Numbered from the stretch's first letter, positions 23,057 to 46,962 are shown. The stretch is DNA of 64,000 bases from a virus (IMGVR_UViG_3300026382_000001), one strand, 5' to 3'. The notes: generated by a model not told the origin, from the sequence alone. Numbers and translations are program-made.

Positions 23057-23467
23057 ATGAGAAGAAAAATAAAAAATGAAATAGATTTTATTTTAAATAG
23101 CTCTAAAAAAAATAATATAGTGTTTATGGAATTTATTGATTTATACCCAGAATTAAAAATGGAAGAATTTGAAAAATTCTTCAATGTTTATAAAAATAGA
23201 AACTATAAATATACAGAACATTTAAAAACCGATGTCGGAGCAATTTTTGATTTTTTCAGACGTGCTGAAACGAATAAAATTTTTAATATACAAAGATTTT
23301 TTAATATAGATACGAATGATTGGGATGATTCTGATTATGGGGAGTATTTTTTTAATCTCAGACACAATTGGAATAGTGTTTATGATAAAATTGGTGCTAA
23401 AAATATAAACTTATTTTGCAATATAAAAGATGTTCCAAAAATAAAAATTAAATTCGAAGGAGAATAG
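23057..23467 (+). CDS. Hypothetical protein with C-terminal KIKIKFEGE tag
   Basis: Shared C-terminal motif. Confidence 0.65.
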   Translation: MRRKIKNEIDFILNSSKKNNIVFMEFIDLYPELKMEEFEKFFNVYKNRNYKYTEHLKTDVGAIFDFFRRAETNKIFNIQRFFNIDTNDWDDSDYGEYFFNLRHNWNSVYDKIGAKNINLFCNIKDVPKIKIKFEGE

Positions 23468-23674
23468 ATGTGTTTTTTTACAGAACGTTTTGGTATTTAT
23501 TTAAGTAGATGGCTACTCAGTGCATTCGTAATGATGATACCATTAGTATTAATAAATAAATATAGTTTAACCAAAAAGTTTGGAAAATATAAAGAATATA
23601 TTGATTTGGTAATAGTTTCTATTATAGGAGCTTTTATATTTTACAACATCGATCAATACATATTTAAACATTAA
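23468..23674 (+). CDS. Small two-TM membrane protein
   Basis: Two hydrophobic helices. Confidence 0.6.
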   Translation: MCFFTERFGIYLSRWLLSAFVMMIPLVLINKYSLTKKFGKYKEYIDLVIVSIIGAFIFYNIDQYIFKH

Positions 23675-23693
23675 AATAAAAAAGGAAAAAGCC

Positions 23694-23900
23694 GTGTTAA
23701 AGAAAAAAATAAATGAAAGTATAGATAAAGCAGAGGAAATGTTCAATTCTATTATTAAAGATATTGAAGAAAATAAACCAGAAATTTATTTAAAATTAGT
23801 AAGTCAAAATAGACATACTTATAGACCAGTATGGCGAGATGAAGTAATGGTTAACCGATCTCACGAAAAGGTTCTAGTTAAATTATTAAACTGGAAATAA
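23694..23900 (+). CDS. Hypothetical protein
   Basis: SD AAGGA, GTG start. Confidence 0.5.
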   Translation: MLKKKINESIDKAEEMFNSIIKDIEENKPEIYLKLVSQNRHTYRPVWRDEVMVNRSHEKVLVKLLNWK

Positions 23901-23952
23901 AGTAAAGATATAAATAAATAAAGAAAAGTTTAAGAATAAAATATTGCACATT

Positions 23953-23994
23953 TACTTTAAAATAACTATATATGTGTATAGATATCTTATAATC
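23953..23994 (+). promoter_or_regulatory. Putative phage promoter, second copy of the 42-bp bipartite motif
   Basis: Matches 16355..16396 except the N6 spacer. Confidence 0.65.
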
Positions 23995-24000
23995 AGAAAA

Positions 24001-24220
24001 GATACAATAAGATGAAAGAAGCTTATTATATCGGGTTACCGGTCAGGCATAGAGCAGTATGGCAGGTGGTATTAGGATTAATACATTATCAATAGTATAT
24101 TGGTACAAGGGATTGTACTAGCGTAAAAGCAAGATATACAATAGATTGATAATGGGATTAATACTTAGTACTACTTGGCTTACTACCTCGAAGCAAGGCG
24201 CGGGACCATTTTATGCTTAC
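24001..24220 (+). ncRNA. Candidate structured ncRNA of unknown class
   Basis: Locally GC-richer with no SD-led ORF; nested stems CAGGTGGTATTAGG/CTTAGTACTACTTG (several G-U pairs), CATTATCAAT/ATTGATAATG, TGGTACAA-GGGA-TTGTACTA (GNRA loop), AGGCATAG/TTATGCTT. Confidence 0.6.
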
Positions 24221-24242
24221 TTAAATTAAAAAAGGAAAATAA

Positions 24243-24614
24243 ATGAATTTAGAAAAACCATACTTAAATGAAGAAATTTGTTTTTTAGAATGGTTAATTA
24301 TTTTTTCTGAAAAAACAGAAGGATACGAATTAGCTTATAAAAATTTTTTACATAATATTTCTTTATTATCCTCATATAAAAAAAAGAGATTATATAATAA
24401 AAATTTACACCCAACCCAATATATAAATTTACATGCTCATTGGAGTAAAACTCAGGAAGGATATAATTATTGGAAAATAGTAAATGATGAATGGAAAACT
24501 GTTTTATACGATATTGAAAATTATGAAGATCACCCGGAATATAACGTAAAAAAAATATTCTTTAATCATTTACCAAATACTAAAAAATTAAAAGTTAAAT
24601 TCGAAGGAGATTAG
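24243..24614 (+). CDS. Paralogous family protein (WxxTxEGYxYW) with KLKVKFEGD tail
   Basis: FLEWL...WSKTQEGYNYWKIVNDEW. Confidence 0.7.
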   Translation: MNLEKPYLNEEICFLEWLIIFSEKTEGYELAYKNFLHNISLLSSYKKKRLYNKNLHPTQYINLHAHWSKTQEGYNYWKIVNDEWKTVLYDIENYEDHPEYNVKKIFFNHLPNTKKLKVKFEGD

Positions 24615-24953
24615 GTGAGAGTAAATATAATAGAATGGTTAACTGATAAGTATAATTTTAATATTAATTTATTAAAAAAAGAAATAAAATTTTCACATAT
24701 GCATAAAAATCTTGGCAATTATTCCAATAAAAAAAATTGTTCTGAGATTAATGGTCTAACGAGAAATAAGAACATAATTGACAGATTGTTTATATGGAAT
24801 CATTCTGATAAAACGTTTTCTAGTAAATTTTTTATTATTGATCAAGATTGGAGATGTTTTTCTGAAATTAATAAATTGTTAGATGAGGATGTATATTACG
24901 ATTTTAATTTTTTTAAAAAAGAAAAATTAAAAATCAAATTCGAAGGGAATTAA
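24615..24953 (+). CDS. Paralogous family protein with KLKIKFEGN tail
   Basis: IIEWL...FIW...F..IDQDW. Confidence 0.65.
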   Translation: MRVNIIEWLTDKYNFNINLLKKEIKFSHMHKNLGNYSNKKNCSEINGLTRNKNIIDRLFIWNHSDKTFSSKFFIIDQDWRCFSEINKLLDEDVYYDFNFFKKEKLKIKFEGN

Positions 24954-25159
24954 ATAACTATTCATAGTGTCAACTAACCTACTATAGCCAGTTATTTCAA
25001 AAAGACAAAAAATTTTAAAACCTAAAATTTAAGAAATAGTTAAATTTTCAATCCTTTATAACACCGGAAAATAGGGGACTTGGTTTTTGATTTTAAGTTT
25101 ATTTTAAAATCTGTTAGCTAGAGATTTTAAAAACAAACAACTATTAATAGTTAACTATT
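24952..25159 (-). repeat. 208-bp inverted repeat, copy B
   Basis: Reverse complement of 12952..13159. Confidence 0.95.
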
Positions 25160-25210
25160 GATAGTTGTTTGAAATAAAAAGATATTAAATTTGATAAATA
25201 AAGGAAAATT

Positions 25211-25555
25211 ATGAAAAGAAAAATAATAACATTATACGAATGGTTAATACAAAATTATTCGTATGATATAGCCAAAAGATTTACTTCGAATTTAAAGTAT
25301 CGTAACTTTTGTTCCAAACTAGACATACCAGGTGGTGATAGTGTGGAATATATTAATTATTCTTTTGAGTGGGAAAGTACTCCAGAAGGCTATAATTTTT
25401 GGTCGTATGTTAATGAATCGTGGCTGAATTATATTAGTAGTTTAGAACGCTTAAAATTAGTTTTAGGAGTTAATTATGAAATTAGTTATGGTAAATTACC
25501 ATTAAATAAAGAAACTAGTGGTTTAAATAATATAACCACTATTGTATTTAATTAA
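25211..25555 (+). CDS. Paralogous family protein (WxxTxEGYxFW)
   Basis: LYEWL...FEWESTPEGYNFWSYVNESW. Confidence 0.7.
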   Translation: MKRKIITLYEWLIQNYSYDIAKRFTSNLKYRNFCSKLDIPGGDSVEYINYSFEWESTPEGYNFWSYVNESWLNYISSLERLKLVLGVNYEISYGKLPLNKETSGLNNITTIVFN

Positions 25556-25572
25556 ATAAAAAAGGAAATAAA

Positions 25573-26301
25573 ATGTCTGAAAAAAAATATATATTTGTAC
25601 TCCCAAGAGAAGTAGAAGATGGTTTAATGAAATTTGAGGAAGTAACTTTTAAAGGTATTGTTTATCAACAAAAATATTTAGAAATTACTAATTCTAGAAT
25701 TGATCATGATTCGATGATGGAACTCCTTCGAAAAGGATATCCAGAGGACTGTTTTGAAGAATTTTTAGACCCAAAGGAAAAATTCAAAAAAAAAATTACT
25801 AAGTATGTTAATAATATTTTTGAAGCTCAAGAAACATACAAAAATATTATTATAAAAGTGTTTGGTAATAATAAAGAATTTTATTTACTTTATGATAAAA
25901 AAGATAAAGTTTTTTACAAGTATACTAATCTTAATCCAGTCCGAACCGGATTAGGTACTGGAAATGAAGAGGGATATCTATACAATTTTTTAAATAATCA
26001 GTATAATATTTTTGGTGAACATTTAGATATTAATGTATTTATACAACCAAAAGAAAATATGAAATTAATATTTACGAAAAAATATAAGTATTATATTACT
26101 TCTAAAAAATGCGTTTGTAAAACAACTGGTTCTGGGGCTGGACAAATTACCGGTTGGATTGATAAATTATCCGATGATAATAAATCAATTAATAAAAAAT
26201 ATAAAAAAATTGATTCGGTTAGATGTATAATTCCGGAAGTTATTAAAGAATTAACTACTGAGAAACATCCAATTAATCATTTAATTAAATCGGAGTATTA
26301 A
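25573..26301 (+). CDS. Hypothetical protein
   Basis: 242-aa ORF with SD. Confidence 0.6.
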   Translation: MSEKKYIFVLPREVEDGLMKFEEVTFKGIVYQQKYLEITNSRIDHDSMMELLRKGYPEDCFEEFLDPKEKFKKKITKYVNNIFEAQETYKNIIIKVFGNNKEFYLLYDKKDKVFYKYTNLNPVRTGLGTGNEEGYLYNFLNNQYNIFGEHLDINVFIQPKENMKLIFTKKYKYYITSKKCVCKTTGSGAGQITGWIDKLSDDNKSINKKYKKIDSVRCIIPEVIKELTTEKHPINHLIKSEY

Positions 26302-26302
26302 G

Positions 26303-27124
26303 ATGCTAGAAAGAAAAGATTTAGAAATATTAAAAGAGATTAATGGAAATACTCGTATAATATCGGATACTCATTTTTTTCATGATAGAGTTTTTCTTTT
26401 TGAAAGATCTAGATTAGATTTAGTTCTCGAACATCCAGAACTTCCAGAAAAGTTTATTAAAGTAATAAAAGATTTCTTGTATCAGGATACAGGAAGAACT
26501 CATAAAAAGTTAGAAAATATTTCTAAAGAATTAATTGAATATCATAATGATATGATAATTAGAAAATGGAATGATGTAATTAAAGACGAGGATCTTATTA
26601 TATGTATGGGTGATTTTGCCTGGAAAGGTATCCAGGAAATTATACCAAAACTTAATGGTAAAAAAATATTAATTCTGGGTAATCATGATAGAAGTGGTTC
26701 AAATTCTTATCCAAATTTTACTGTAATTCGGGGACTGGTTAAAGTTCTATTTTTAGAAAATGGTAAAATGATTATAAGAGAAGTTCCTGGAAAAGATAAA
26801 GACGATTTATTCAGCACTTTAATTATTAATAATTCTATATTTAGTCATTATCCAATTTCGGAGTACGAAAAAGAAGTTTCTAGACGAGGAAAAAATGAAA
26901 ATATAAATCTAAGAATCGATAAGTTAATTCATATTGTAAATAATGATAATACTATTAAATTTAATTTTCATGGTCATACACATTCTAGAAATATAAATCC
27001 GTTTGGAGAAAAATTTAATTTGAAATATTTTAATTGTTCATGTGAAAGAGTAAATTTTACTCCTAAAAAATTATCGGATTTTTTTATAGATAAAGACGAT
27101 TTAGAAATATTCGAAGGAAATTAA
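26303..27124 (+). CDS. Calcineurin-like metallophosphoesterase
   Basis: SDTHF, MGDF, GNHD, SHYP, HGHTH. Confidence 0.9.
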   Translation: MLERKDLEILKEINGNTRIISDTHFFHDRVFLFERSRLDLVLEHPELPEKFIKVIKDFLYQDTGRTHKKLENISKELIEYHNDMIIRKWNDVIKDEDLIICMGDFAWKGIQEIIPKLNGKKILILGNHDRSGSNSYPNFTVIRGLVKVLFLENGKMIIREVPGKDKDDLFSTLIINNSIFSHYPISEYEKEVSRRGKNENINLRIDKLIHIVNNDNTIKFNFHGHTHSRNINPFGEKFNLKYFNCSCERVNFTPKKLSDFFIDKDDLEIFEGN

Positions 27125-27125
27125 T

Positions 27126-27506
27126 ATGGGAATTGTGAAAATATTTGTATATGGTTCTTTAAAAAATAATTTTGAAAATAATGATATTTTAAAGAAAATT
27201 GGTACATATAAGACAAAGGCTAAAACAGTTAAAAAATTTCCAATGGTTATTAATGATAAAAATGGTTTTGTAAAATTTCCATATTTACTAGATCAGGAAA
27301 ACACTGGTTTATTTATTAATGGAGAAGTTTGGGAAATTCATCATACTAAATTAAAAGTATTGGATGATTTTGAATCTGAATTATTTAAACGTGGTATAAT
27401 AAGCGTTATAGATGAAAATGATAAAATATATACAACACAAGTATATTTTAAGAACAAAATTATCGATTTTAAATATGAGGATTTAATTTATGAATGGACA
27501 GAATAA
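27126..27506 (+). CDS. Gamma-glutamylcyclotransferase (AIG2-like)
   Basis: FVYGSLK, GEVW, LDDFE. Confidence 0.85.
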   Translation: MGIVKIFVYGSLKNNFENNDILKKIGTYKTKAKTVKKFPMVINDKNGFVKFPYLLDQENTGLFINGEVWEIHHTKLKVLDDFESELFKRGIISVIDENDKIYTTQVYFKNKIIDFKYEDLIYEWTE

Positions 27507-27521
27507 AAAAAAGGAAGAAAA

Positions 27522-27923
27522 ATGTTAAAAGCACATGAGTTAATGTCTGGTAATGTTGATCATAATATGAGCGTAATCAAACTTATAAAATCTCGTAATT
27601 TTGATCAGGAAAGTAAACAGCTAATTATTAAAAGTTCCGGTACTACTATGAAAAAGAAGTACGGTGGGCCACAATTATATACTGTTAAAGTAGAGGGTCG
27701 AAATGGCGTACCAATAATTACACCAGATACCGAAGTACGGGTGTATTGCAATTGCCATGATTTTATTTTTAGAAGAGCGTATTGTTTAAATCAAGAAGGT
27801 TCTTTATTTATACCAGAAGGATTTGTAGACGCTCCACCAGAAACTACTAATCCAGATTGCCATAAAAAATATTGTAAACATATATCAGCAGCTTTAAAGT
27901 ATCTTATCCAAACAGGTAGATAG
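27522..27923 (+). CDS. SWIM zinc-finger protein
   Basis: CNCHDF...CKH. Confidence 0.75.
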   Translation: MLKAHELMSGNVDHNMSVIKLIKSRNFDQESKQLIIKSSGTTMKKKYGGPQLYTVKVEGRNGVPIITPDTEVRVYCNCHDFIFRRAYCLNQEGSLFIPEGFVDAPPETTNPDCHKKYCKHISAALKYLIQTGR

Positions 27924-28676
27924 ATGATCAACGTGGATGGAGATTTACGAGGCCTAGTTGGAGAAAGAGAACACACGAACAATTTAAATGAATGGAAATT
28001 AAACTATAAATATAACCAAGTTAAAAAATGGTTTGCTTTAAGTTTCCCGACCTTTATAAAAATTTTTTCATTATTTAAATTATCATTTGTATATATAGCA
28101 GATTTTTTAAAATTATATCCACTATATATTTATTATAAATATTTTAAATATGGAATATTTCCAATATTTTATAAACCTTCGGGTGCCTTTAAGTATATTC
28201 ATTTTTTCAAAGTTTTTCGAAATATATTTAAACTTAATCCGGTGCCAAGAGACGACTGGTTATTTTATACTCATTCTAATATTTATTTTTTTAAGATAGA
28301 ATGGAATAATTTATCTAGATTAAACCAAATATCAATATTGTTGAATTATAATATAAGAAAAAAATTTAAAAATGAATTAATAGAAGACTATAAATATTTT
28401 CTTCATCGAGAAGATGGTCCAGCTAAAATTTCAAAAAAATTTTGTAAAATCTGGGCAATATTTGGAGAATATCACCGAGAAGATGGTCCAGCCGTCGAAT
28501 GTAAATATCTAGGTTACCGCCAGTATTTTGTGCATGATAAATTGCACCGAGAAGATGGACCAGCATTGGAATATACAAACAATGTAAAAAAAAATCAATA
28601 TTGGATAAATGGAAAAAAATTAAACAAAAGAGAATTTATATCAAAAACATTTAAATTAAATATTAAATTCGATTAA
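27924..28676 (+). CDS. HREDGPA-repeat protein with KLNIKFD tail
   Basis: Three HREDGPA repeats; YWINGK. Confidence 0.7.
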   Translation: MINVDGDLRGLVGEREHTNNLNEWKLNYKYNQVKKWFALSFPTFIKIFSLFKLSFVYIADFLKLYPLYIYYKYFKYGIFPIFYKPSGAFKYIHFFKVFRNIFKLNPVPRDDWLFYTHSNIYFFKIEWNNLSRLNQISILLNYNIRKKFKNELIEDYKYFLHREDGPAKISKKFCKIWAIFGEYHREDGPAVECKYLGYRQYFVHDKLHREDGPALEYTNNVKKNQYWINGKKLNKREFISKTFKLNIKFD

Positions 28677-35561: not shown

Positions 35562-35753
35562 ATGGTATCTCCGGAAGGTTCATTAAATGATAGAATATCG
35601 ATGCTTAAAAATGTAGATATGGAACAGGCAACACAAGAACAAAGACGAATTATGCTAGATATGGCTATTGATATAATACAAAAAGATCCAGTTTCTTTTT
35701 TAGGAAAACCTGAAATAAAAAAAGGGAAAATTGATATTAAGTTCGATAGCTAA
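35562..35753 (+). CDS. Small protein with KIDIKFDS tail
   Basis: Shared C-terminal motif. Confidence 0.5.
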   Translation: MVSPEGSLNDRISMLKNVDMEQATQEQRRIMLDMAIDIIQKDPVSFLGKPEIKKGKIDIKFDS

Positions 35754-35790
35754 AGATAGTTAACTATTCATAGTGGTACTATGAATAGTT
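35745..35790. repeat. 46-bp AACTAT/ATAGTT palindromic element
   Basis: Same as 63087..63132 except the 3-nt loop (GGT vs ACG) of a 13-bp stem. Confidence 0.85.
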
Positions 35791-35814
35791 ATTTAAATAA
35801 AAAAAGGATTATAT

Positions 35815-36147
35815 ATGGGAGAGAACATATATTTTATGGATTATATTATACACCATTTTTCAAATTTAGAGGTTTTAAGAAGAATTTTAATTGAAGGAGG
35901 CGATTATAATAATAATATAACATTAGAACAGATATTTGAAAAGGTTAATAATAATTCGGATATTGGTGAAATTTTTAATACTCATATAAATTGGAGTAAT
36001 AAATATGAAAGATTGGGTTTTATAAAATCAATTGAATTACACGCAGTCCACAGGGAATGGAGAAGTATTGTTGGAAAATGTAAAAACGATGGTGGTAAAA
36101 TACTTTTTAAAAAAAACATATATAAGTTAAAAATTAAATTTGACTAA
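35815..36147 (+). CDS. Paralogous family protein with KLKIKFD tail
   Basis: FMDYI...INWS...VHREW; shared tail. Confidence 0.6.
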   Translation: MGENIYFMDYIIHHFSNLEVLRRILIEGGDYNNNITLEQIFEKVNNNSDIGEIFNTHINWSNKYERLGFIKSIELHAVHREWRSIVGKCKNDGGKILFKKNIYKLKIKFD

Positions 36148-36168: not shown

Positions 36169-37095
36169 ATGGTATTTAGAATTACAAATTATTGTAATAT
36201 GGGATGCATGCATTGTATGCAAGATAGCACTACTAAGGGTAAGCATGCTACAATGGAAATTATAGATAAAATGATTAGATTTGCTGAATTAGCGCCCCTA
36301 ACGACTACTATTCAATTAAGTGGTGGTGAACCGACAGAACATCCGGAATTTATTAAAATTCTTAAAAAAGTTTTAAAAGCTTTTAGTCCAAGACCAATTA
36401 CTATTATTACGAATGGTGATGGTTTTTATAATAAGGAACAATTAAAAAAAGTTTTAAAACTTATGCAAAAATATCCAAATCTTTTAATTCAACTTACATC
36501 AGTAAAAGGAATTTATAAAGATCATGATGAAAGAGTTAAGTTTCTAAATAAAAAATTTGATAAAATTAAAAAAAAATATGGAGATGATGTAGAAAGTCGT
36601 ATGGTATTATGTGAAACTTTGGATCATGGTATTATACCAGTTGGTAGAGCTTTAAAAAATATTGATAAGATAAAAGAAGTTTCTTTTATCGCTCAGCGAA
36701 AAAGCCCCGCATGTTTTAATATGTATAATTCATTAAGTGAGTATAATGGAGAATTATTTAAAGCCATCGATTATGTTAAAACTCATAGTTTGACTAGTTT
36801 TTGTAAGCCATTGATTAAAGAGGATGGTAAAGTAGTTTTTGGAGAATATGATGCATGCAGTACTATTATAGATTTGGCCGAAATTTCTATAGAAAATATG
36901 GAAAATATGAATAGTATGAAAGTAGATATTAGCCAAGTGCTTGGACCATGTAGAAGTTGCGTAAATAATCAAAATATGGAATCGGTTATAGACCAATACC
37001 TATATAAATTTAAACAACCCGAAAAAATTTTAAATATTAAAGATAAAACTAAATTAGAAGCTTTGGAGGCAATTAAAAAATTAAAAGGAGATTAA
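36169..37095 (+). CDS. Radical SAM protein
   Basis: CNMGCMHC, SGGEPTEHP, TNG; additional C-terminal Cys. Confidence 0.9.
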   Translation: MVFRITNYCNMGCMHCMQDSTTKGKHATMEIIDKMIRFAELAPLTTTIQLSGGEPTEHPEFIKILKKVLKAFSPRPITIITNGDGFYNKEQLKKVLKLMQKYPNLLIQLTSVKGIYKDHDERVKFLNKKFDKIKKKYGDDVESRMVLCETLDHGIIPVGRALKNIDKIKEVSFIAQRKSPACFNMYNSLSEYNGELFKAIDYVKTHSLTSFCKPLIKEDGKVVFGEYDACSTIIDLAEISIENMENMNSMKVDISQVLGPCRSCVNNQNMESVIDQYLYKFKQPEKILNIKDKTKLEALEAIKKLKGD

Positions 37096-37503
37096 ATGCA
37101 GGATGGTGGAATAGATCGATCCAAATTTTTTGATATTTATCAGCAATGGTCCAATCTTATAAATAATAATGATATTGATCAAAATGGTGGGGTAATCGCT
37201 TCGAATAAAAATGGAAGAATGTATTCGGAACATACGATAAAAAAAATGATATTAAATAGTACATATGGTTCAGGTATTGGAATAAATACTAGTACCATTA
37301 GACCAACTTCTTCAATACGATCTTATAATAGAGGGTTAAGTCCAAATTTTATAGCACTAGATGAGGTTGAAATAACTCCAGAAACATCTGACTTAAATCA
37401 ATTTATTTCTATCGAATTTAAATTACCCGAGAGTTTATTATCGGATAAATCAGAAAAACCAAAGAAATTAAAAATTAATTTTGAGGAGGATGCATATGAA
37501 TGA
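37096..37503 (+). CDS. Hypothetical protein carrying short enzyme-like motifs and KLKINFEED tail
   Basis: KKMILNSTYG, GIGINTSTIRP, RGLSPNFIALDE. Confidence 0.6.
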   Translation: MQDGGIDRSKFFDIYQQWSNLINNNDIDQNGGVIASNKNGRMYSEHTIKKMILNSTYGSGIGINTSTIRPTSSIRSYNRGLSPNFIALDEVEITPETSDLNQFISIEFKLPESLLSDKSEKPKKLKINFEEDAYE

Positions 37504-37768
37504 TTATACAAATTTAGATGAATCAGATACCTCTAAAATATTAGAAGGTATTATAGACAGTGTTCAAAATAAAGTAAATTTCTTAAATTTTGAAACATAT
37601 CGAGGAGAGTGGGATAATAACTGGTTTAATGAAAATAATGATTATGGTATTAAAACTATGTATTATAAAAAAATGTATTGGAAGAGCGATGAAAATAGGG
37701 TTAAAAAACCAACCAAATTAAAGGACATGATTTCACCTGGTATTAATTTTGAGGAGGATGCAATATGA
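37496..37768 (+). CDS. Hypothetical protein with INFEED tail
   Basis: Start after GAGGAGG. Confidence 0.55.
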   Translation: MNDYTNLDESDTSKILEGIIDSVQNKVNFLNFETYRGEWDNNWFNENNDYGIKTMYYKKMYWKSDENRVKKPTKLKDMISPGINFEEDAI

Positions 37769-37926
37769 ACCCGGAATATCCAGGAGAAAATTATTATGGT
37801 ATAAATAGTATATCTAAAGTTATTTCTGCAAGATTAATTTCTGAAAAACAACAGATTAAAATATTAGAGGAATCTTTAAAAAAAAGAAAAAATAAAAAAT
37901 TGGATGTTAAATTCGAAGGAGATTAA
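37765..37926 (+). CDS. Small protein (53 aa) with KLDVKFEGD tail
   Basis: Not in track; MNPEYPGENYYG...KKLDVKFEGD, GAGGAGG SD. Confidence 0.65.
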   Translation: MNPEYPGENYYGINSISKVISARLISEKQQIKILEESLKKRKNKKLDVKFEGD

Positions 37927-40239: not shown

Positions 40240-40240
40240 A

Positions 40241-40636: not shown

Positions 40637-40676
40637 TCCTTCGAGGATTAGAAAAAATAAATAAAAAAGGATCAAT

Positions 40677-42245
40677 ATGACACACACAAAAAATATTATA
40701 AAATATTTGGACAATATTAAAAATTCGAATAGAACTACTAGAAAAAAAACTATTTTATTACAATTATATAAATTAGATAAAAAAAATATTACTAGATTTT
40801 TTCAATATATTTATAGTCCATATATAATTTTTAATATTACGCATCCAAAAGAAGAAGATTTATCAATAATTGACGATTATTTTAAAATACCTGTAAACGA
40901 TTTAGGTACTTTATTAAATAGAATTGAGGACTTATTTCTAGTTAAAAAATTACGTGGAAACGCTGGTAAAAAAGCATTGATACAACTTCACGATTCATGT
41001 AATCAAGATATAAAGGTATTTCTTAAAATGATTTTGGATAGAGATCTAGATATTGGATTAGGAGTACGATTAATTAATCAAGTTATCCCAAAATGTATTC
41101 CAACTGCAGATTATATGGGAGCCGTCGGATTTAATGGTTTCATCGACTTAATTAATAGAGTAAGTTCATATCAAAACATAGAACATATGAATGATAACGA
41201 AATATTTGGATTAGCTCAAGAAAAAGCCGATGGTTTATTTGCATTTGCTAATTTAAGTACTGGGCAATTTATTAGCCGTAGACTAAAAGAAATTATGTTC
41301 CAAGATAAAAAAATTTTAAAACAACTTAAAGATTTTAGAATATTTTTGGAAAAAAATAATTTCATTTCTAAAAAAGATATTATAACGTTACATGGTGAAC
41401 TAACCGTGGATGGTTATCCAAACCGTCTAGAAGCAAATGGTATTTTTAAAGCTTTAACTACTTTAAATATTAAAGAAAAAGAAAATCCAAAAGAACTTAA
41501 GAAATACAAGGATGAGTTTAAAAAGGTTTTTGGTATTTCTGATGCCGAAATGAGAAAAAAAATTAGATATACCATTTGGGATCTTACTACCAATCATGAT
41601 TTTTCAGCTCAGCCGGATAATGGTTCTCGTTTTTATAAATTAGAAAATGCTTTGAATTCTTTTAAAGAAGTTAATACTGGCGAATTAATTCAATTGATAA
41701 ATACAAAAACTATTTCGAAATCTAATTTTGAAACAGTAATTGATTTTTTCGAAGAACAATTGCGAGAAGGAAAAGAAGGTATTATCTTTAAAGTTACTAA
41801 AGCTCCTTTTGAAATAGGACATTCGGTAAATTGTATTAAATTTAAAAATATTTTTGATTTTGATTTACGAGTAGTTGGTTTCGAAGAAGGTAAAAGAAAA
41901 GATACGTTAGGAGCGTTGGTTTGCGAATCCGAAGATGGTTTAGTTAAGACTAATTTGTCCGGAATTGATAAAGATCTTAAAAAAGAGATTTGGGAAAATC
42001 AAGAAAGATATTTAGGTAAAATTTGCGAAGGCGAAGCAAATGATATTACTAAATCGGATAAAAATGAATATTATAGTTTAATGCATCCTCGTTTTATTAC
42101 ATTTAGAGATGATAAAACAGAAGCCGATAATTTAAATAAAATTATGCGTTCTAGAGATTCTTTTAAAATGATTTATAAATTAAGAGAAGATTTGAGAAAG
42201 GCAGTTGACGAAAAAAAGTTATTCTGTGAAGATTGTAGTATATAA
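40677..42245 (+). CDS. ATP-dependent DNA ligase
   Basis: QEKADG, LHGEL, IWDL, EGIIFK, KFK, SLMHPRF..FRDDK. Confidence 0.92.
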   Translation: MTHTKNIIKYLDNIKNSNRTTRKKTILLQLYKLDKKNITRFFQYIYSPYIIFNITHPKEEDLSIIDDYFKIPVNDLGTLLNRIEDLFLVKKLRGNAGKKALIQLHDSCNQDIKVFLKMILDRDLDIGLGVRLINQVIPKCIPTADYMGAVGFNGFIDLINRVSSYQNIEHMNDNEIFGLAQEKADGLFAFANLSTGQFISRRLKEIMFQDKKILKQLKDFRIFLEKNNFISKKDIITLHGELTVDGYPNRLEANGIFKALTTLNIKEKENPKELKKYKDEFKKVFGISDAEMRKKIRYTIWDLTTNHDFSAQPDNGSRFYKLENALNSFKEVNTGELIQLINTKTISKSNFETVIDFFEEQLREGKEGIIFKVTKAPFEIGHSVNCIKFKNIFDFDLRVVGFEEGKRKDTLGALVCESEDGLVKTNLSGIDKDLKKEIWENQERYLGKICEGEANDITKSDKNEYYSLMHPRFITFRDDKTEADNLNKIMRSRDSFKMIYKLREDLRKAVDEKKLFCEDCSI

Positions 42246-42257
42246 TAAGGAACATAA

Positions 42258-44276
42258 ATGAGTAATATTAATCAAGATGAGAAAGACGTAGTTTTATTTA
42301 GTCCAGTCGTTGAAGTGTTTTGTCCATTCGCATCGAGTGTCGATGCGTCTAGACTCAATATGGAAAATAAGCAAATGGGGCAATTGGTTATTTCTAATAA
42401 AACAGAAACCCCATTTATTATAGATAAAAATTATAAAGATTTAACAACTGTTCAATCACCGTATCAAGAAATTGCTGAAGATGATGGAATAGTTATTTTT
42501 AGAAAAGATGAACTACTTATTATTTATTATACTACTAAAAAGAATATGGAATTAAAACATATTCCAATGTATAAAAAATTAATTAATAATAGTCTTTCGT
42601 TAAAATATTGTGTTACTGAAGGAACGTCTTTTAAAAAGAATGATGTTCTTTTTGATTACAGTAATTATATTCCAGAAAGTCAACTACCCAGAGTTGGTTA
42701 CCGAGCCGATATTTTATTTAGTACTTTCTTTGGATTTAATGCCGATGATGCAATCGCTATTTCAGAAAGCTTTGCTAAGAAAACTGAAATTGAATACAGT
42801 GAAAAGATTTTTATACCAATTACTAAATTCATGAAGTTTATTAAAAATAAAAAAAGTGAATCTTATTTTCCATTAATTGGTGAAACTTTAGATGATACTG
42901 ATAAAATAGCTAAGTACTATAATATTGATATGGAAGATTTCTTCTTAACTGAATTAATTAATATTGATGAAAGTACTGAGTCTAAGTATTATACCAAAGG
43001 CATTGAAGGTATTAAAAATGGAAAAATTGAAAGAATTAAAGTTCACAAATTAACCAACGATTCTTTTAATGATAAAAGAAAAGAGTATTTTTATACTTCG
43101 GAACTTATAACAGAACTCGAGTATTATTATAATATTCAACTTAAAGATATAGAAAATCTTCGTTTAAAATTTAGATCTCTTGGTTTAAAAGAAGAAGATG
43201 TTGAGGAATATGTTAATAATATAGAATCTCAATATTTTCAAATGAAAAACCCAAGTAAAATTATGATAGAAGAATTTAGTATGAGATACAATACTGATCC
43301 AGAATTTTTAGATTATATAGTAGAGCTTGATATTTCATATGTTACTGGAACTACTAAAGGAGATAAATTTAGTAATCTTTATGCCGGTAAAGGAACGGTT
43401 GCTTTAATAGTGCCGGATGAACTTATGCCTAAAAACCCGGATACTAAATTACCATTCGATGTGGTATTTAACCCACTTGGTATCTTTGGTCGTAATAACT
43501 GGGGGAGTATCTACGAATTAAATCTAAGTAAAATTATTAGAGATGTTGAAAGATCTGATAATAAAACAAGATTAGAAAAACTTAAGTACATAAACGAAAC
43601 TTTTATTAAATACACGGACGAAGATTATTACAATACCGTTTCACATATGTTATCCGATGATAAGGTATTCCAAACACTTTGTGAAAATATCGATAAAGAT
43701 GGTCTTTATTTATTTTTTAGTAATTTTGCTAATATTCCATATTACGAATTTATGAAAATTGTAAATGATTACGAAGATTTATTTAAAGTAAATATTACTT
43801 CTAAAAAAGATATTACTTTTACTGGAGCATTTACTACTTATTTAAGAGCTTTCCTAAATTTAGAAAATACTATTTTTAGAAAGAATGATATTAAAAGTTA
43901 TTATGAAACTACTGCTAATTTACAATACGGTGAAAATTATTTAATCAAATTGTATCACACTAGTAACTCAAAATATAATGCGGTATCATTTGCTAATAAT
44001 TATAGTAAAACTACTGGGCAACCAGCTAAAGGTAGAAAAGTGGAAGGTGGTCAACATTTAAGTTGGCAAAGTACAGCTTCATTATTATCACATAGACATA
44101 ATAATGCCGTACTAAAAGAATTATATACTTTTAAATCCGATTCTCAAGAAGATAAGGAAACTTTCTTAATGAAAATTATTAAAGATGGTAAATACAATAT
44201 GAAGCAAAAATACCAAAGTGTTACTAAAAAAACTATTAACACTGCTTTAAAAATAATTGGTATGGAATTTACTTAG
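42258..44276 (+). CDS. rpoB: RNA polymerase beta C-terminal subunit (RNAP set 2)
   Basis: PFASSVDASRLNM..KQ..Q, GFNADDAI.IS, GDKFSNLYAGKG, NPLGIFGRNN, GQPAKGRKVEGGQ. Confidence 0.92.
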   Translation: MSNINQDEKDVVLFSPVVEVFCPFASSVDASRLNMENKQMGQLVISNKTETPFIIDKNYKDLTTVQSPYQEIAEDDGIVIFRKDELLIIYYTTKKNMELKHIPMYKKLINNSLSLKYCVTEGTSFKKNDVLFDYSNYIPESQLPRVGYRADILFSTFFGFNADDAIAISESFAKKTEIEYSEKIFIPITKFMKFIKNKKSESYFPLIGETLDDTDKIAKYYNIDMEDFFLTELINIDESTESKYYTKGIEGIKNGKIERIKVHKLTNDSFNDKRKEYFYTSELITELEYYYNIQLKDIENLRLKFRSLGLKEEDVEEYVNNIESQYFQMKNPSKIMIEEFSMRYNTDPEFLDYIVELDISYVTGTTKGDKFSNLYAGKGTVALIVPDELMPKNPDTKLPFDVVFNPLGIFGRNNWGSIYELNLSKIIRDVERSDNKTRLEKLKYINETFIKYTDEDYYNTVSHMLSDDKVFQTLCENIDKDGLYLFFSNFANIPYYEFMKIVNDYEDLFKVNITSKKDITFTGAFTTYLRAFLNLENTIFRKNDIKSYYETTANLQYGENYLIKLYHTSNSKYNAVSFANNYSKTTGQPAKGRKVEGGQHLSWQSTASLLSHRHNNAVLKELYTFKSDSQEDKETFLMKIIKDGKYNMKQKYQSVTKKTINTALKIIGMEFT

Positions 44277-44322
44277 GAGCCGAGGCTCCTAAGTATTCAT
44301 GTCTTTAAAATAAGGACATGAA
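44270..44322 (+). terminator. Tandem hairpins after the rpoB C-terminal gene
   Basis: TACTTAGGAGC-CGAG-GCTCCTAAGTA and TTCATGTCTT...AGGACATGAA. Confidence 0.55.
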
Positions 44323-44324
44323 AC

Positions 44325-44373
44325 TATAGATATCTTAATATCAGATAAATATAAACTACGGTTTATATTTATC
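44325..44373 (+). promoter_or_regulatory. TATAGATATC promoter-like motif plus 5' hairpin with cUACGg loop
   Basis: TATAGATATCTTAATATC then GATAAATATAAAC-TACG-GTTTATATTTATC. Confidence 0.55.
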
Positions 44374-44430
44374 ATTTTTTCTTTATTTTTAGTAAAAAAA
44401 TAAAAAATTAAATTAAAAAAAGGAGACGTA

Positions 44431-45690
44431 ATGTCTACACAAGAATTAAATTCAACACCAACTTCGGAGTTCGAGGATGGAATAAATGAACAAGAAAGAA
44501 TAAGAAGAGAAGAAGTAAATGAGGCAGAGATTAATATTGGCCAACGTATTATCCAACGAAATGTACAAGGTGATCAAATAACGCCTGACAATAGTGTTAG
44601 AACTGAAGAAGTGGCCGATAGAAGTTTAACGCGAGAAGAAGGTTTAACAGTTGACGCAGCCTATAGAGATAGAGATTATTCTGAATCACGACAAGTAAGT
44701 ATTTCGGAAGAAGATATTATAGCAAAGATTAAGGATTTTGAAAGAGATATCTATACTTATGATGAAAGCGTTTCTTTATTTCAAAATCAAGAACGAGGTA
44801 AAGCTAAAATTCAAGAAATGGGTCAATACTTAAGACCATTTGGTGAACTCACTCCAAGAATTCTTGAAGCAGTAAAACGTATTAATATTAATCGTATTAA
44901 ACCACCACGTAATTCAATTATGGTTAATAATTTACTTACTTCTAAAGTTCAATCAGCTAAAATTTCTGGAGATTCATATATGAGTATTTTTAAAGCTCAA
45001 AAATATCTTTTAAATATTCAGCAGGATATTACCGAGATTAAAAACTTCTTTTATGTGATTGATAAAAATAACGCGAGTATTCTTCTTAAAAATTTTAAAG
45101 ATAATAAACAGGCGTTAATTAATATTATCGTTGGTTTAGTAAAAATCGCGTTTGCTTATAAAAGCATTACTATTAAATACGAAAGAAGTTACGATTTGAT
45201 TTATAAAAATCAAACATTCGATAATGTAGTATTTGATTTTGATTCTTATAAAGCTTTTGGAGATTACGTATTTCTTAAAAAAATTGTAACCGATATACAA
45301 AGCGAAGATGGAGAAATTGAGCAAAATATAAATATTGTTAAAATTAGATTGCTTTCTGAAGATTTTAAAAGAGTTGATCTTAAAGTAAAAAATGAAAACG
45401 CAAGAAGTACTGAAAATATGGTAGTTGCCGAAGTACCAGAGGAATTTGAATTAGAAGTATTTGAATCTAAAGACTACGAATCAGCTGAAAATTTAGAATT
45501 CTCAAAAGAGATACTAGAAGCATTTATTAAAAATGATGAATTCAAAAATAAAATTTTTGATTTTATCAATGGGGCATTTTTAATTTATCCAGAGATTTTA
45601 GAACATCTCCCTGAGAATATAATTCTTAAAAGAGAAGATTTTAAAATTTTTGATTATTTAGAATCCCAAAATAATTCGCAGGTGGTTTAA
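44431..45690 (+). CDS. Hypothetical protein
   Basis: 419 aa, AAGGAG SD, acidic disordered N-terminus. Confidence 0.7.
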   Translation: MSTQELNSTPTSEFEDGINEQERIRREEVNEAEINIGQRIIQRNVQGDQITPDNSVRTEEVADRSLTREEGLTVDAAYRDRDYSESRQVSISEEDIIAKIKDFERDIYTYDESVSLFQNQERGKAKIQEMGQYLRPFGELTPRILEAVKRININRIKPPRNSIMVNNLLTSKVQSAKISGDSYMSIFKAQKYLLNIQQDITEIKNFFYVIDKNNASILLKNFKDNKQALINIIVGLVKIAFAYKSITIKYERSYDLIYKNQTFDNVVFDFDSYKAFGDYVFLKKIVTDIQSEDGEIEQNINIVKIRLLSEDFKRVDLKVKNENARSTENMVVAEVPEEFELEVFESKDYESAENLEFSKEILEAFIKNDEFKNKIFDFINGAFLIYPEILEHLPENIILKREDFKIFDYLESQNNSQVV

Positions 45691-45709
45691 TTTAAGTAAA
45701 GGAGATAAC

Positions 45710-46615
45710 ATGATCGATATCAGATTATGTTCATCATATGAACAAGCCGTAAATGTTTCGAAAACTATGACTGATGTCGTAGCTATAGAAACGGAATATG
45801 GAGATGAATATTTCGGTAAGAAAGATGGAGCAGTTTTAGAACTACTCCATCATGGAAAATTATCGGATAATAAACCAGCAAGCACTATTTTAATTCCTAA
45901 TAATTATGAAAATGTTAATTATAAATATAATAATTTTATAATTAGTCATATTGATTTAGATACTGTATTTGGAATTATGTGGGCAGGAGGTTATCTAAAA
46001 AATACTAAAACTGCTAGAGTAATTAGCGAATTAGTTGGATATTTAGATATAAACGGATTTTATAAATTCAAAAATGAATTACTTGATTATAATAATCCAG
46101 ATCATATTAAACTTTTAGCGATTACAAGTTTAATTAATTTTTGGAAAATTAATCTAAATAGTTTATCGAAAGATATTCATAAGTTAATACTTCGTATTAG
46201 AGATTATATTATTCTTGGTGTTCCAGAAAGTATTAAAAAATATCTTTTACAAGGAATTAATGAAAATGATTTTTTAAAAGAAATTACCGAATTGGAGTTA
46301 AGTATTCCAAAAATACTAGTAACTTATATTAGTAATACCTCCGTAACAGACCGTTATTTAAATAATGGTTTGGAATATGATATGATATTACAATATAATA
46401 CTGGTAGCAATAGCATTACTTTAGCTTGTCAAAACGAAGAACTGGCCAAAAAATATTTTGGATCAAATGGAGTTATAGAACCATTACAAGCATTCTTTGG
46501 TAAGAAAGCGGGTGGTCATAAAAGTATTGGTGGTTCACCAAGAGGAAAAAAATTACAAATAGAATATCTAGAAGCTTTTTTAAAGTTTTTAAAAAGAAAT
46601 TATTTTAACATATAG
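45710..46615 (+). CDS. DHH-like phosphoesterase
   Basis: HHG, SHIDLD, GGH..IGGSPRG. Confidence 0.55.
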   Translation: MIDIRLCSSYEQAVNVSKTMTDVVAIETEYGDEYFGKKDGAVLELLHHGKLSDNKPASTILIPNNYENVNYKYNNFIISHIDLDTVFGIMWAGGYLKNTKTARVISELVGYLDINGFYKFKNELLDYNNPDHIKLLAITSLINFWKINLNSLSKDIHKLILRIRDYIILGVPESIKKYLLQGINENDFLKEITELELSIPKILVTYISNTSVTDRYLNNGLEYDMILQYNTGSNSITLACQNEELAKKYFGSNGVIEPLQAFFGKKAGGHKSIGGSPRGKKLQIEYLEAFLKFLKRNYFNI

Positions 46616-46623
46616 GAAATTTT

Positions 46624-46962
46624 ATGGAATACAATATAAATTTTAATTACAGTAAAGATACTTTAAAATTCTTTAGACTTATTTCAAAATATGGTATTAG
46701 TCCAGTTGATTGGGTAGATCAAATGAAACCATATAAACAAGGTTGGGGAAGTTATAAACCACAACATAGGAATCCAGAATGGACACCAGAAGAATTTTTT
46801 GACAAAGCTCCTAAAAAAATTTGGGCCTTATCATCATTTTATATTTCATCTGGAAGATTTGATACGAAAACTATTATACAAATCAATAATGAATGGAAAA
46901 AAGAAATAAGTTCGTTAAATATACCTAGAAATAGTAAATTGAATATAATATTCGATACCTAA
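46624..46962 (+). CDS. Hypothetical protein with KLNIIFDT tail
   Basis: INNEW motif and shared tail. Confidence 0.6.
   Translation: MEYNINFNYSKDTLKFFRLISKYGISPVDWVDQMKPYKQGWGSYKPQHRNPEWTPEEFFDKAPKKIWALSSFYISSGRFDTKTIIQINNEWKKEISSLNIPRNSKLNIIFDT

What the first reader, a model, noticed from the sequence alone, without database searches (positions are those of the whole stretch)
23057..46962. Shared C-terminal tag K-[LI]-x-[IV]-x-F-[DE] on about 10 otherwise different small proteins
Seen endings: KIKIKFEGE (23467), KLKVKFEGD (24614), KLKIKFEGN (24953), KLNIKFD (28676), KIDIKFDS (35753), KLKIKFD (36147), KLKINFEED (37503), GINFEED (37768), KLDVKFEGD (37926), KLNIIFDT (46962). Weaker cases are TTIVFN, LEIFEGN and KEIHFEV on the Pol exonuclease. 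The same string opens the RNAP beta at 12851 (KSKIKINFE). The EG(D/E) part is explained by an overlapping SD (GAAGGAG), but the alternating KxKxKF core persists where no gene is coupled and varies synonymously. Most copies use TTC-GA despite the AT bias, which hints at a shared ancestral tail module. Inference: a portable beta-strand docking or localisation signal recruiting diverse effectors to one hub (clamp, RNAP, a phage compartment or a protease adaptor).
Basis: partly seen in the sequence, partly recalled or inferred. Interest (0 to 1): 0.72.

Follow-up and report, generated by a model that had tools for sequence, protein, structure and literature searches.

The report
Shared beta-strand tail on phage proteins
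Eleven small proteins of an uncultured hydrothermal-vent jumbo phage end in the same short K-L-K-I-K-F-D/E peptide; six are diverged copies of one gene family and five are unrelated proteins onto which the peptide was grafted, so it behaves like a portable handle whose reader is still unknown.

Summary
K-[LI]-x-[IV]-x-F-[DE] lies within 6 residues of the C-terminus in 9 proteins, against 0.027 expected from composition (Fisher p = 5e-13). All nine sit at 23-47 kb of the window; none occurs elsewhere in the 167-kb record. Two degenerate copies (GINFEEDAI, TTIVFN) also belong.

"Otherwise different" is only half right. Six carriers are diverged paralogues of one unannotated ~115-aa helical family (50 clusters among 1.84 billion representatives), and most members keep the tail. 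Five carriers (250, 135, 95, 63 and 53 aa) share nothing with the family except the tail. For four of them, orthologues in a related phage keep it. The 250-aa carrier belongs to the large PF20530 repeat family, and of its 120 best homologues only the four from this phage group carry the tail.

The residues after the Phe (E-G-D, E-E-D-A-x) are the ribosome-binding site of the next gene. The K-L-K-I-K-F core persists without coupling, varies synonymously and conservatively, is strongly amphipathic as a beta-strand, is unstructured in an AlphaFold model, and follows variable-length linkers.

My best reading (0.45) is a tethered docking epitope, analogous to the T4 clamp-binding tails. No partner was identified. 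The scan has reported analogous shared tails in other phages.

The parts
23057..23467 (+). Family member, 136 aa, directly after the gp44-type clamp loader. Tail core KIKIKFE at 23438-23458, extension GE.
   Evidence: core HMM 5e-13. The stop abuts the next start.
24243..24614 (+). Family member, 123 aa. Tail core KLKVKFE at 24585-24605, extension GD.
   Evidence: AlphaFold2 model: helical core with pLDDT 82-93, last ~15 residues unstructured with pLDDT 60-72.
24615..24953 (+). Family member, 112 aa. Tail core KLKIKFE at 24924-24944, extension GN. Not coupled to a downstream gene.
   Evidence: The SD is decayed (GGGAAT). A 215-nt inverted-repeat arm starts at 24949.
25211..25555 (+). Family member, 114 aa, with a degenerate tail ITTIVFN (25532-25552).
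   Evidence: The tail-less core HMM finds it at E = 2e-5. Its orthologue in L016 ends KIEIQFHD.
27924..28676 (+). Non-family carrier, 250 aa: hydrophobic N-terminal part, PF20530 (YwqK/MORN-like HREDGPA) repeats, then tail core KLNIKFD at 28653-28673. Uncoupled.
   Evidence: Only the 4 orthologues from this phage group carry the tail, out of the 120 best homologues.
35562..35753 (+). Non-family carrier, 63 aa. Tail core KIDIKFD at 35727-35747, extension S. Last gene before a hairpin element.
   Evidence: No clear SD and no orthologue in L002, so this is the least certain gene.
35815..36147 (+). Family member, 110 aa. Tail core KLKIKFD at 36124-36144. Uncoupled.
   Evidence: Its L002 orthologue ends KKLKINFN.
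37096..37503 (+). Non-family carrier, 135 aa, with a PolB motif-B-like K-MIL-NS-T-YG at residues 50-58 and a low-complexity linker. Tail core KLKINFE at 37465-37485, extension EDAYE.
   Evidence: The extension is the SD GAGGAGG plus the overlapping start of the next gene. In the orthologue the linker differs in length (PEK repeats) while KLKINFE is invariant. hhalign against the family aligns the tail only.
37481..37768 (+). Non-family carrier, up to 95 aa (likely start is the ATG at 37496). Tail SPGINFE at 37733-37753, extension EDAI.
   Evidence: The orthologue ends ISPGIKFDENEDIK. hhalign against the family aligns 5 tail columns only.
37765..37926 (+). Non-family carrier, 53 aa. Tail core KLDVKFE at 37897-37917, extension GD.
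   Evidence: The orthologue ends KDILVKFEGD, with indels in the linker.
46624..46962 (+). Family member, 112 aa. Tail core KLNIIFD at 46936-46956, extension T. Uncoupled.
   Evidence: core HMM 1e-21.

Best explanation
The tail is a protein-level module: a tethered, C-terminal, amphipathic beta-strand epitope of the form (K/R)-hydrophobic-x-hydrophobic-x-Phe-(Asp/Glu/Asn). It was inherited within one fast-evolving family of ~115-aa helical proteins and was additionally grafted onto at least five unrelated proteins of the replication and early-gene block of this jumbo-phage lineage.

Most likely it hangs free on a flexible, length-variable linker and docks by beta-strand addition on one common partner. 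The Leu/Ile/Phe face would be buried and the Lys face left for charge contacts. Carriers would thereby be gathered at the same place, plausibly the replication or transcription machinery, since the array starts right behind the gp44-type clamp loader.

Shown: enrichment; protein-level conservation; portability; strand amphipathicity; lack of intramolecular structure in one model; and that the residues after the Phe are dictated by the downstream ribosome-binding site.

For: 1. Enrichment and confinement to one gene block: 9 terminal hits against 0.027 expected, Fisher p = 5e-13.

2. Codons vary synonymously and conservatively (TTA/TTG, ATT/ATA/ATC/GTT, AAA/AAG, GAA/GAT/GAC/GAG) while the residue pattern holds. 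The motif is found only in the coding frame.

3. The core persists in uncoupled genes, which end F-D, F-DS, F-DT, F-N or F-HD. E-G-[DEN] and E-E-D-A-x go with an abutting or overlapping start codon.

4. Portability. Five carriers do not match the tail-less family HMM. For the two that were profile-compared, only the tail aligns. Orthologues of four of them keep the tail. Of the 120 best homologues of the PF20530 repeat protein, only the 4 orthologues have it; the sampled others (e.g. P0066, P0074) end near L-x-E-x-E-F.

5. Family-wide retention: 22 of 39 aligned family members from metagenomes end in hydrophobic-x-F-acid. Multi-repeat and longer members lack any tail, so core and tail are separable.

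6. The tail looks like a free epitope. In the AlphaFold2 model the helical core has pLDDT 82-93, while the last ~15 residues have no secondary structure and pLDDT 60-72. Linkers differ in length between orthologues while the tail stays invariant, e.g. PEK repeats before KLKINFE; see also the indels.

7. The beta hydrophobic moment is 1.07-1.24 for 8 of 9 tails, against a proteome 99th percentile of 0.92. The helical moment is 0.2-0.4.

8. Precedent: the T4 gp43, gp55 and gp33 C-terminal epitopes sit behind divergent linkers, are interchangeable, and bind one clamp (PMC2988020). The clamp loader here is gp44-type, and the arrays begin directly after it in two phages.
Against: No partner was found.
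- No gp45, PCNA or DnaN clamp is detectable in the record, which is only 59% complete.
- The clamp-sized neighbour 25573-26301 is not a clamp.
- The phage's own PolB C-terminal piece ends AAFDKLFPKGV, not in this tail.
- The tail is basic rather than hydrophobic-acidic as in T4.
- Six of eleven carriers share it by descent, so the number of independent acquisitions is small, and neighbouring genes could have obtained it by local recombination.
- Only one model was made, so a role as the last strand of a small sheet, within or between subunits, is not excluded.
Confidence: 0.45

Rival explanations
1. Structural or self-assembly strand. The tail is the last strand of a small beta-sheet. It either completes each carrier's own fold, pairing with the conserved penultimate I-x-F strand and the N-terminal Y-F-L-D-W strand, or zips carriers to each other into homo- or hetero-oligomers. 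In this reading there is no separate hub.
For: In family members the tail is preceded by a conserved I-x-F strand and a short turn, a hairpin-like arrangement. In the model that penultimate strand pairs with the N-terminal strand, leaving an open sheet edge. Extreme beta amphipathicity is typical of strands that pack on a core or self-associate. The PF20530 repeats are expected to be beta-hairpin units (my own knowledge of MORN-like repeats), which an extra hairpin could cap.
Against: AlphaFold2 did not place the tail on the core. Linkers vary in length and include low-complexity PEK repeats, which is unusual for an integral strand. The 53- and 63-aa carriers have little body for the tail to pack against.
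Confidence: 0.25
2. Shared degradation or chaperone handle. An exposed hydrophobic-basic strand recognised by a host AAA+ protease (Lon-, ClpX- or FtsH-type) or by a chaperone, giving all carriers the same short lifetime or handling during infection.
For: The segment is exposed, unstructured and hydrophobic-aromatic at the C-terminus of many small early-block proteins. A subgroup of family members ends in a basic tract plus a terminal hydrophobic residue, e.g. KLKVKNLKI. From my own knowledge this recalls basic C-terminal ClpX signals such as that of MuA.
Against: The distance from the Phe to the free C-terminus varies from 1 to 7 residues, which argues against readers that need a fixed terminal carboxylate. 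Nothing in the record points to a matching protease. It is unclear why a PolB-motif protein and a repeat protein would need the same degron.
Confidence: 0.1
3. Nucleic-acid or membrane tether. The Lys face of the strand binds DNA, RNA or anionic lipid non-specifically, concentrating carriers on the replicating genome or on a membrane.
For: Alternating Lys and hydrophobic residues and a basic linker. Carriers lie in the DNA-metabolism block.
Against: The invariant Phe followed by an acidic or amide residue, and the tolerance of N, D, I or T at the 'Lys' positions (KLNIIFD, KIDIKFD), fit a specific pocket better than electrostatic binding.
Confidence: 0.08
4. Nucleotide-level by-product. The conserved 3' end is a gene-junction cassette (A/T-rich leader, SD and start codon of the next gene) spread by duplication and recombination, and the peptide has no function of its own.
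For: The E-G-D and E-E-D-A-x parts are indeed the SD and spacer of the next gene. In L001 the junctions of recent tandem duplicates are near-identical. TTC is over-used for the Phe (11 of 24 tails in three phages against about 21%). Orthologous KLKINF tails are identical at the DNA level.
Against: Five uncoupled genes keep the core without any SD behind it. Third positions and conservative replacements vary while the residue pattern holds. Ordinary intergenic ribosome-binding sites in this genome look different (AAAGGAAA-type). The tail on the PF20530 protein is conserved in four orthologues at 51-64% identity, with I/V, K/N/A/I and D/N changes.
Confidence: 0.07

Closest known systems
Sliding-clamp-binding C-terminal epitopes of phage T4 gp43, gp55 and gp33 (Geiduschek and Kassavetis 2010, PMC2988020)
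   Same: A short conserved peptide at the extreme C-terminus of functionally different proteins of one phage. It sits behind a divergent, variable-length linker, is interchangeable between carriers, and is read by one hub. A gp44-type clamp loader is encoded next to the first carrier here.
   Different: The T4 epitopes are hydrophobic and acidic; this tail alternates Lys with hydrophobic residues. No gp45-type clamp was found in the (incomplete) record. The phage's own PolB piece ends in a different, more T4-like FDKLF motif. There are about 11 carriers, mostly tiny ORFans rather than known replisome or transcription factors.
Bacterial beta-clamp-binding motifs QL[SD]LF / QLxLxL (my own knowledge; the term occurs in PMC4564189, which I did not read in detail)
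   Same: The hydrophobic pattern x-L-x-[LI]-x-[LF], often at a protein terminus, used by many unrelated clients of one ring.
   Different: The leading Gln is replaced by Lys/Arg. An acidic or amide residue follows the Phe. Lys occupies the x positions. The host and its DnaN are unknown, so nothing could be tested.
Acidic C-terminal tails of T7 gp2.5 and gp4 that dock on T7 DNA polymerase (my own knowledge)
   Same: A shared terminal peptide with a critical aromatic residue, used by several phage proteins to reach one partner.
   Different: The T7 tails are acidic runs ending exactly in Phe. Here the tail is basic and the Phe is followed by 1 to 7 further residues.
Other shared C-terminal tails on small phage proteins reported earlier by this scan (e1-173140, e1-831089, e1-4772764, e1-5985799, e1-3433680, e1-5890014)
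   Different: The sequence class differs (an amphipathic basic beta-strand). About half of the carriers here are demonstrable paralogues. The part after the key residue doubles as the next gene's ribosome-binding site.

Membership tests
T4-type clamp-binding C-terminal epitope | Conserved peptide at the extreme C-terminus behind a divergent, variable-length linker, shared by different proteins of one phage | tested here: met
   Description of the T4 case taken from PMC2988020.
T4-type clamp-binding C-terminal epitope | Hydrophobic and acidic composition | tested here: not met
   The core is K-hydrophobic-K-hydrophobic-K-F. The only acidic residues follow the Phe, and most of those are SD-encoded.
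T4-type clamp-binding C-terminal epitope | The phage DNA polymerase carries the same epitope | tested here: not met
   The PolB motif-C/thumb piece 47414-48391 ends AAFDKLFPKGV. Only a 135-aa protein with a motif-B-like segment carries the tail.
T4-type clamp-binding C-terminal epitope | A gp45-type clamp is encoded and binds the peptide | tested here: inconclusive
   A gp44-type loader is present. No hit for PF09116, PF02916, PF00705 or PF00712, nor for P-HM2 gp45, but the record is 59% complete. Binding is not testable here.
Bacterial beta-clamp-binding motif (QLxLxL / QL[SD]LF) | Gln-Leu start and hydrophobic residues at positions 2, 4 and 6 (or 5), binding the DnaN cleft | tested here: inconclusive
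   The hydrophobic spacing fits, but Gln is absent (Lys/Arg instead). The host is unknown, so binding is not testable.
Ubiquitin-like C-terminal tail (Gly plus one residue, processed and activated by a JAB/E1 cassette) | Conserved terminal Gly, and resemblance to the modifier encoded by the cassette at 56543-59683 | tested here: not met
   Gly occurs only in SD-coupled tails and is absent from F-D, F-DS, F-DT and F-N tails. The modifier repeats end ...AKSG and are unlike the tail.
Translational-coupling by-product (SD overlapping the 3' end) | The conserved residues are those encoded by the SD and spacer of an abutting downstream gene | tested here: not met
   This holds for the extension E-G-[DEN] / E-E-D-A-x. 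It does not hold for the K-L-x-I-x-F core, which persists in five uncoupled genes.
One paralogous protein family (unannotated YFLDW...W helical family, A1/A2) | Similarity outside the tail, detectable with a tail-less profile | tested here: met
   Met for six carriers (23057, 24243, 24615, 25211, 35815, 46624). Not met for the other five: 27924, 35562, 37096, 37481, 37765. For 37096 and 37481 profile comparison aligns the tail only. 27924 belongs to another family, PF20530.
T4 gp62-type small clamp-loader subunit (considered for the family because of position and size) | Sequence or profile similarity to gp62 | tested here: inconclusive
   hhalign of A2 against P-HM2 gp62 gives probability about 1%. 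No gp62 hit in the genome. No clamp-loader PHROG among 39 members. VIA and Foldseek searches gave no significant fold match.
ssrA/ClpX-type C-terminal degron | Recognition residues at a fixed distance from the free carboxylate | tested here: not met
   The distance from Phe to the C-terminus varies from 1 to 7 residues. Degradation itself is not testable here.

The most novel reading that the evidence does not exclude
The tail is a true address label. One receptor, phage- or host-encoded, reads K-L-K-I-K-F-D/E on about a quarter of the proteins of the early/replication block and delivers or holds them at one site, such as a replication factory, a phage-built compartment or the phage RNA polymerase. 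In that case this lineage would use a simple linear targeting signal of a kind not described for jumbo phages. The related basic tail (…KLKVKNLKI) in another branch of the family would be the same label re-tuned to a different receptor.
Probability: 0.12. Interest if true: 0.85.

Novelty: new variant of a known kind. Interest (0 to 1): 0.5.

Why it matters
Shared terminal peptides are how phages such as T4 and T7 wire several proteins to one hub. Here a different peptide class, a basic amphipathic beta-strand ending in Phe plus an acidic or amide residue, marks about eleven mostly uncharacterised proteins of an uncultured vent jumbo phage that has its own RNA polymerases and a heavily fragmented replication apparatus.

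If one reader exists, the tail gives an experimental handle in two ways: fish with the peptide to find the hub, and list the carriers to define a functional group among ORFans that are otherwise impossible to annotate. The case also shows one stretch of DNA under double duty, coding both a peptide motif and the next gene's ribosome-binding site, and a clear instance of a tail being grafted onto a member of a widespread repeat family.

If the tail proves to be only a structural strand of a fast-evolving family, the finding reduces to a new small protein family.

Tried and rejected
1. Sliding clamp as reader. No gp45, PCNA or DnaN was found: Pfam models and P-HM2 gp45 gave nothing. The clamp-sized neighbour 25573-26301 was modelled (pLDDT 72.6) and has no clamp-like or other significant match. 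The idea is neither shown nor excluded, because the record is 59% complete.

2. Family equals gp62. No support.

3. Ubiquitin-like reading (Gly plus one residue). Rejected.

4. Fold of the family core. Foldseek against PDB, BFVD and the VIA wide search gave no significant match. Atlas gave no usable hit. Pfam and PHROGs gave nothing informative.

5. More relatives.
- The search for related loci with the family alignment failed for lack of conserved columns, and with single members it gave one locus.
- Strict and loose DNA patterns for the tail found only the two known relatives plus one probable chance hit in a complete 136.7-kb phage that has no family member.
- The single metagenome scan returned the same contig as L002.
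- No cultured phage encodes a family member.

6. Complex prediction.

7. Sequencing runs. Vent metagenomes hold the phage, and no RNA holder is listed. The laid contigs were too noisy in this AT-rich DNA to score tail variation.

8. Charge-complementary strand search. It gave a few sites, e.g. EFELEVFE in 44431-45690 and the C-terminal LHIDIEMD of 51913-52758, but nothing testable.

9. Literature searches for a described equivalent found none.

10. RNAP N-terminal KIKINFE: chance level.

11. TTCGAA as a site: 77 sites against 65 expected, not special.

Full report
**Setting**

The window is 26% G+C and densely coded. It is part of a 167-kb viral record estimated to be 59% complete. Identical proteins also occur on a 281-kb contig, and the DNA is held by hydrothermal-vent metagenomes.

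The + strand block from 13 to 56 kb carries replication, nucleotide and transcription genes:
- RecJ
- a gp44-type clamp loader (28% identical to cyanomyophage gp44)
- an Mre11-like phosphoesterase
- an ATP-dependent ligase
- pieces of multisubunit RNA polymerase
- radical-SAM enzymes
- a split family-B DNA polymerase

**Observation**

The strict pattern K-[LI]-x-[IV]-x-F-[DE] lies within six residues of the C-terminus in nine proteins.
- Composition predicts 0.027 such cases in the whole record and 0.94 internal ones; two internal ones are seen. Fisher p = 5e-13.
- Random 13-mers drawn from each protein gave at most one hit in any of 300 rounds.
- In six-frame translation the terminal hits are confined to the coding strand.
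- No carrier lies outside 23-47 kb of the window.

Two degenerate copies also belong. GINFEEDAI (37768) has an orthologue ending GIKFDENEDIK. TTIVFN (25555) sits on a protein that the tail-less family profile recovers at E = 2e-5, and its orthologue ends KIEIQFHD.

I do not count LEIFEGN on the Mre11-like protein, because its orthologue reads LEILEGN. KEIHFEV on the PolB exo piece could not be checked. MPKSKIKINFE at the start of an RNAP subunit is within chance expectation.

**What the carriers are**

With the last 14 residues removed, BLAST and a profile HMM still link 23057-23467, 24243-24614, 24615-24953, 25211-25555, 35815-36147 and 46624-46962 to one another. They also link them to seven tandem genes that follow the clamp loader in a related viral contig, L001.

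A profile search of 1.84 billion representative proteins finds only 50 members at E <= 0.001. None has a Pfam family or an informative PHROG, and none lies in a cultured phage.

An AlphaFold2 model built from 39 sequences gives a confident four-helix core (pLDDT 82-93). An N-terminal strand (the conserved Y-F-L-D-W segment) pairs with a penultimate I-x-F strand. The last ~15 residues, which hold the motif, have no secondary structure and pLDDT 60-72. The core has no significant structural neighbour in PDB, BFVD or a Foldseek-independent search.

So 'otherwise different' fails for six carriers: they share the tail by descent.

The other five carriers are different proteins:
- 27924-28676, 250 aa
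- 37096-37503, 135 aa
- 37481-37768, about 90 aa
- 35562-35753, 63 aa
- 37765-37926, 53 aa

None matches the tail-less profile. Profile-profile comparison of the family with the 135-aa and 95-aa orthologue pairs aligns only the tail, 11 and 5 columns.

The 250-aa protein belongs to the very large PF20530 (YwqK/MORN-like) repeat family. Of its 120 best homologues, only the four orthologues from this phage group end in the tail (KTFKLNIKFD, KTFKLNVNFD, KTFKLNVAFD, KTFKLDVIFN). Sampled others (P0066, P0074) stop about a dozen residues earlier, near L-x-E-x-E-F. That is a clean case of grafting.

In the syntenic relative L002/L016, the orthologues of four of the five non-family carriers keep the tail: FKLDVIFN, KLKINFEGDPNE, GIKFDENEDIK and ILVKFEGD. 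The orthologue of family member 35815-36147 there ends KLKINFN. The 63-aa gene has no orthologue there and no clear ribosome-binding site, so it is the weakest member.

**Protein signal or DNA signal**

The DNA consensus is AAA TTA AAA ATT AAA TTC GAA GGA GAT TAA ATG. What follows the Phe tracks gene coupling exactly:
- E-G-[DEN] occurs when the next start abuts the stop.
- E-E-D-A-Y-E and E-E-D-A-I are GAGGAGG, a spacer and an overlapping ATG.
- Uncoupled genes end F-D, F-DS, F-DT, F-N or F-HD.

The exception in the window is 24953, which ends EGN without a partner. Its SD has decayed to GGGAAT, and a 215-nt, 99% inverted-repeat arm begins at 24949, so the coupling was probably lost by a rearrangement. 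Two L001 genes (ending at 11430 and 12758) likewise keep EGD without an abutting start.

The core persists in the five uncoupled genes. It varies at third positions and by conservative replacements (I/V, D/E/N, K/N). It is not the sequence of ordinary ribosome-binding sites in this genome. I therefore read the core as selected at the protein level and the extension as the neighbour's SD.

TTC is over-used for the Phe: 7 of 11 tails here and 11 of 24 across the three phages, against 15% genome-wide and 21% before GA. It is not universal, and TTCGAA is not unusual in the genome. Selection for accurate decoding of an invariant residue, or shared ancestry, would both explain it; this is inference.

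**How it probably works**

- The seven-residue cores have beta-strand hydrophobic moments of 1.07-1.24 in eight of nine tails, against a proteome 99th percentile of 0.92. Their helical moments are only 0.2-0.4. One face is Leu/Ile/Phe and the other is Lys.
- Linkers in front of the tail differ in length between orthologues and paralogues. The clearest case is the 135-aa protein: SDKSEKPK in the window against a run of PEK repeats in L002, followed in both by an invariant KLKINFE.
- This is the arrangement described for the clamp-binding epitopes of T4 gp55, gp33 and gp43: conserved termini behind divergent linkers, interchangeable, all read by gp45 (PMC2988020).
- Family members that are tandem repeats of the core, or that carry other extensions, lack the tail. 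One branch carries a related basic tail ending in a hydrophobic residue. Tail type is clustered on a poorly resolved tree: 10 changes against 14.4 in shuffles, with 0 of 200 shuffles as low.

Taken together, the best-supported reading is a tethered docking epitope that adds a strand to a partner's sheet or groove.

I could not name the partner. No gp45, PCNA or DnaN clamp was detectable, and the clamp-sized conserved neighbour is not a clamp. The polymerase's own C-terminus (…AAFDKLFPKGV) looks more like a T4-type clamp tail (from my memory of the T4 and RB69 sequences) than this motif does, which weakens the clamp idea.

**Rivals**

- An integral or oligomerising strand is the main rival (0.25). 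The hairpin-like I-x-F, turn, tail arrangement and the open sheet edge in the model speak for it. The variable low-complexity linkers and the tiny carriers speak against it.
- A shared degron or chaperone handle (0.10) fits an exposed hydrophobic tail. It does not fit the variable distance to the carboxylate.
- A DNA or membrane tether (0.08) fits the lysines less well than a pocket fits the invariant Phe plus acid or amide.
- A pure junction-cassette by-product (0.07) explains the extension but not the core.
- A ubiquitin-like reading, prompted by the E1/E2-like cassette at 56.5-59.7 kb and by an earlier scan note, is rejected. The Gly is SD-encoded and absent from uncoupled tails, and the modifier repeats (…AKSG) are unlike the tail.

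**Comparison and verdict**

The closest known systems are the T4 clamp-binding termini and, more loosely, bacterial clamp-binding motifs and the T7 acidic tails. The principle of one terminal peptide on many carriers is known, and this scan has reported analogous tails in other phages.

What is new here:
- the peptide class;
- its confinement to uncultured vent jumbo phages;
- the mixture of descent (six carriers) and grafting (five);
- the dual coding with the downstream ribosome-binding site.

I rate it a new variant of a known kind, with interest 0.5.

Noticed in passing
window 12928-13156, 24955-25166, 35761-35791, 57303-57330, 63103-63133: The intergenic word TAACTATTCATAGTG, often in inverted pairs that form hairpins, occurs 12 times (up to 2 mismatches) against 0.42 expected. 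It marks operon borders.
   Followed up: partly
window 12948-13162 and 24949-25163: 215-nt inverted repeat, 99% complementary, flanking an 11.8-kb block that runs from the strand switch to the stop of tagged gene 24615-24953. A possible inversion or insertion scar.
   Followed up: partly
window 47414-49474 and 37096-37503: The family-B DNA polymerase is in pieces and permuted. The motif-C/thumb piece (47414-48391) is encoded before the exo piece (48392-49474), followed by a DUF723/HNH-like gene. Motif B (KxxxNSxYG) occurs only in the tagged 135-aa protein and is conserved in its 42%-identical orthologue. Motif A was not found in the record.
   Followed up: partly
window 13214-13912 and 15669-16367: Two paralogous HNH homing-endonuclease genes (phrog_559, E about 1e-60) flank the RecJ gene.
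   Followed up: no
window 25573-26301: A conserved 242-aa protein (orthologues at 43-88% identity, many invariant residues including Cys60, Gly-x-Gly-Thr-Gly and Trp195). It has no Pfam, PHROG or PDB match and no significant fold neighbour. The weak top Foldseek rows are cysteine-protease/deubiquitinase-like.
   Followed up: partly
L001 5948-6625; L002 582-1292; L016 4349-5059: Relatives encode ~230-aa proteins ending in long Ser/Cys runs (…SSSSCSSCSSCSS). These are absent from the corresponding place in the window.
   Followed up: no
proteins P0008, P0011, P0025 (metagenomic): Some members of the tagged family are 346-572-aa proteins made of 4-5 tandem copies of the helical core, without the tail. 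P0033 joins the N-terminal half of the core to a thymidylate-kinase segment.
   Followed up: no
proteins P0012, P0013, P0017, P0019, P0023, P0024, P0026, P0028 (metagenomic): One branch of the family ends in a different basic, alternating tail that finishes with a hydrophobic residue (…KLKVKNLKI, …KIKNRKIKI). It may be a second version of the same device.
   Followed up: partly
window 51913-52758 and 44431-45690: The radical-SAM protein ends in an acidic amphipathic strand, LHIDIEMD. The acidic 419-aa protein contains EFELEVFE. Both are charge-complementary to the basic tails, but this is untested.
   Followed up: no
window 36169-37095: The radical-SAM gene just upstream of the tagged trio ends …KKLKGD-stop-ATG. 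This shows the SD-encoded G-D ending without the I-x-F core, a useful internal control for the coupling effect.
   Followed up: yes
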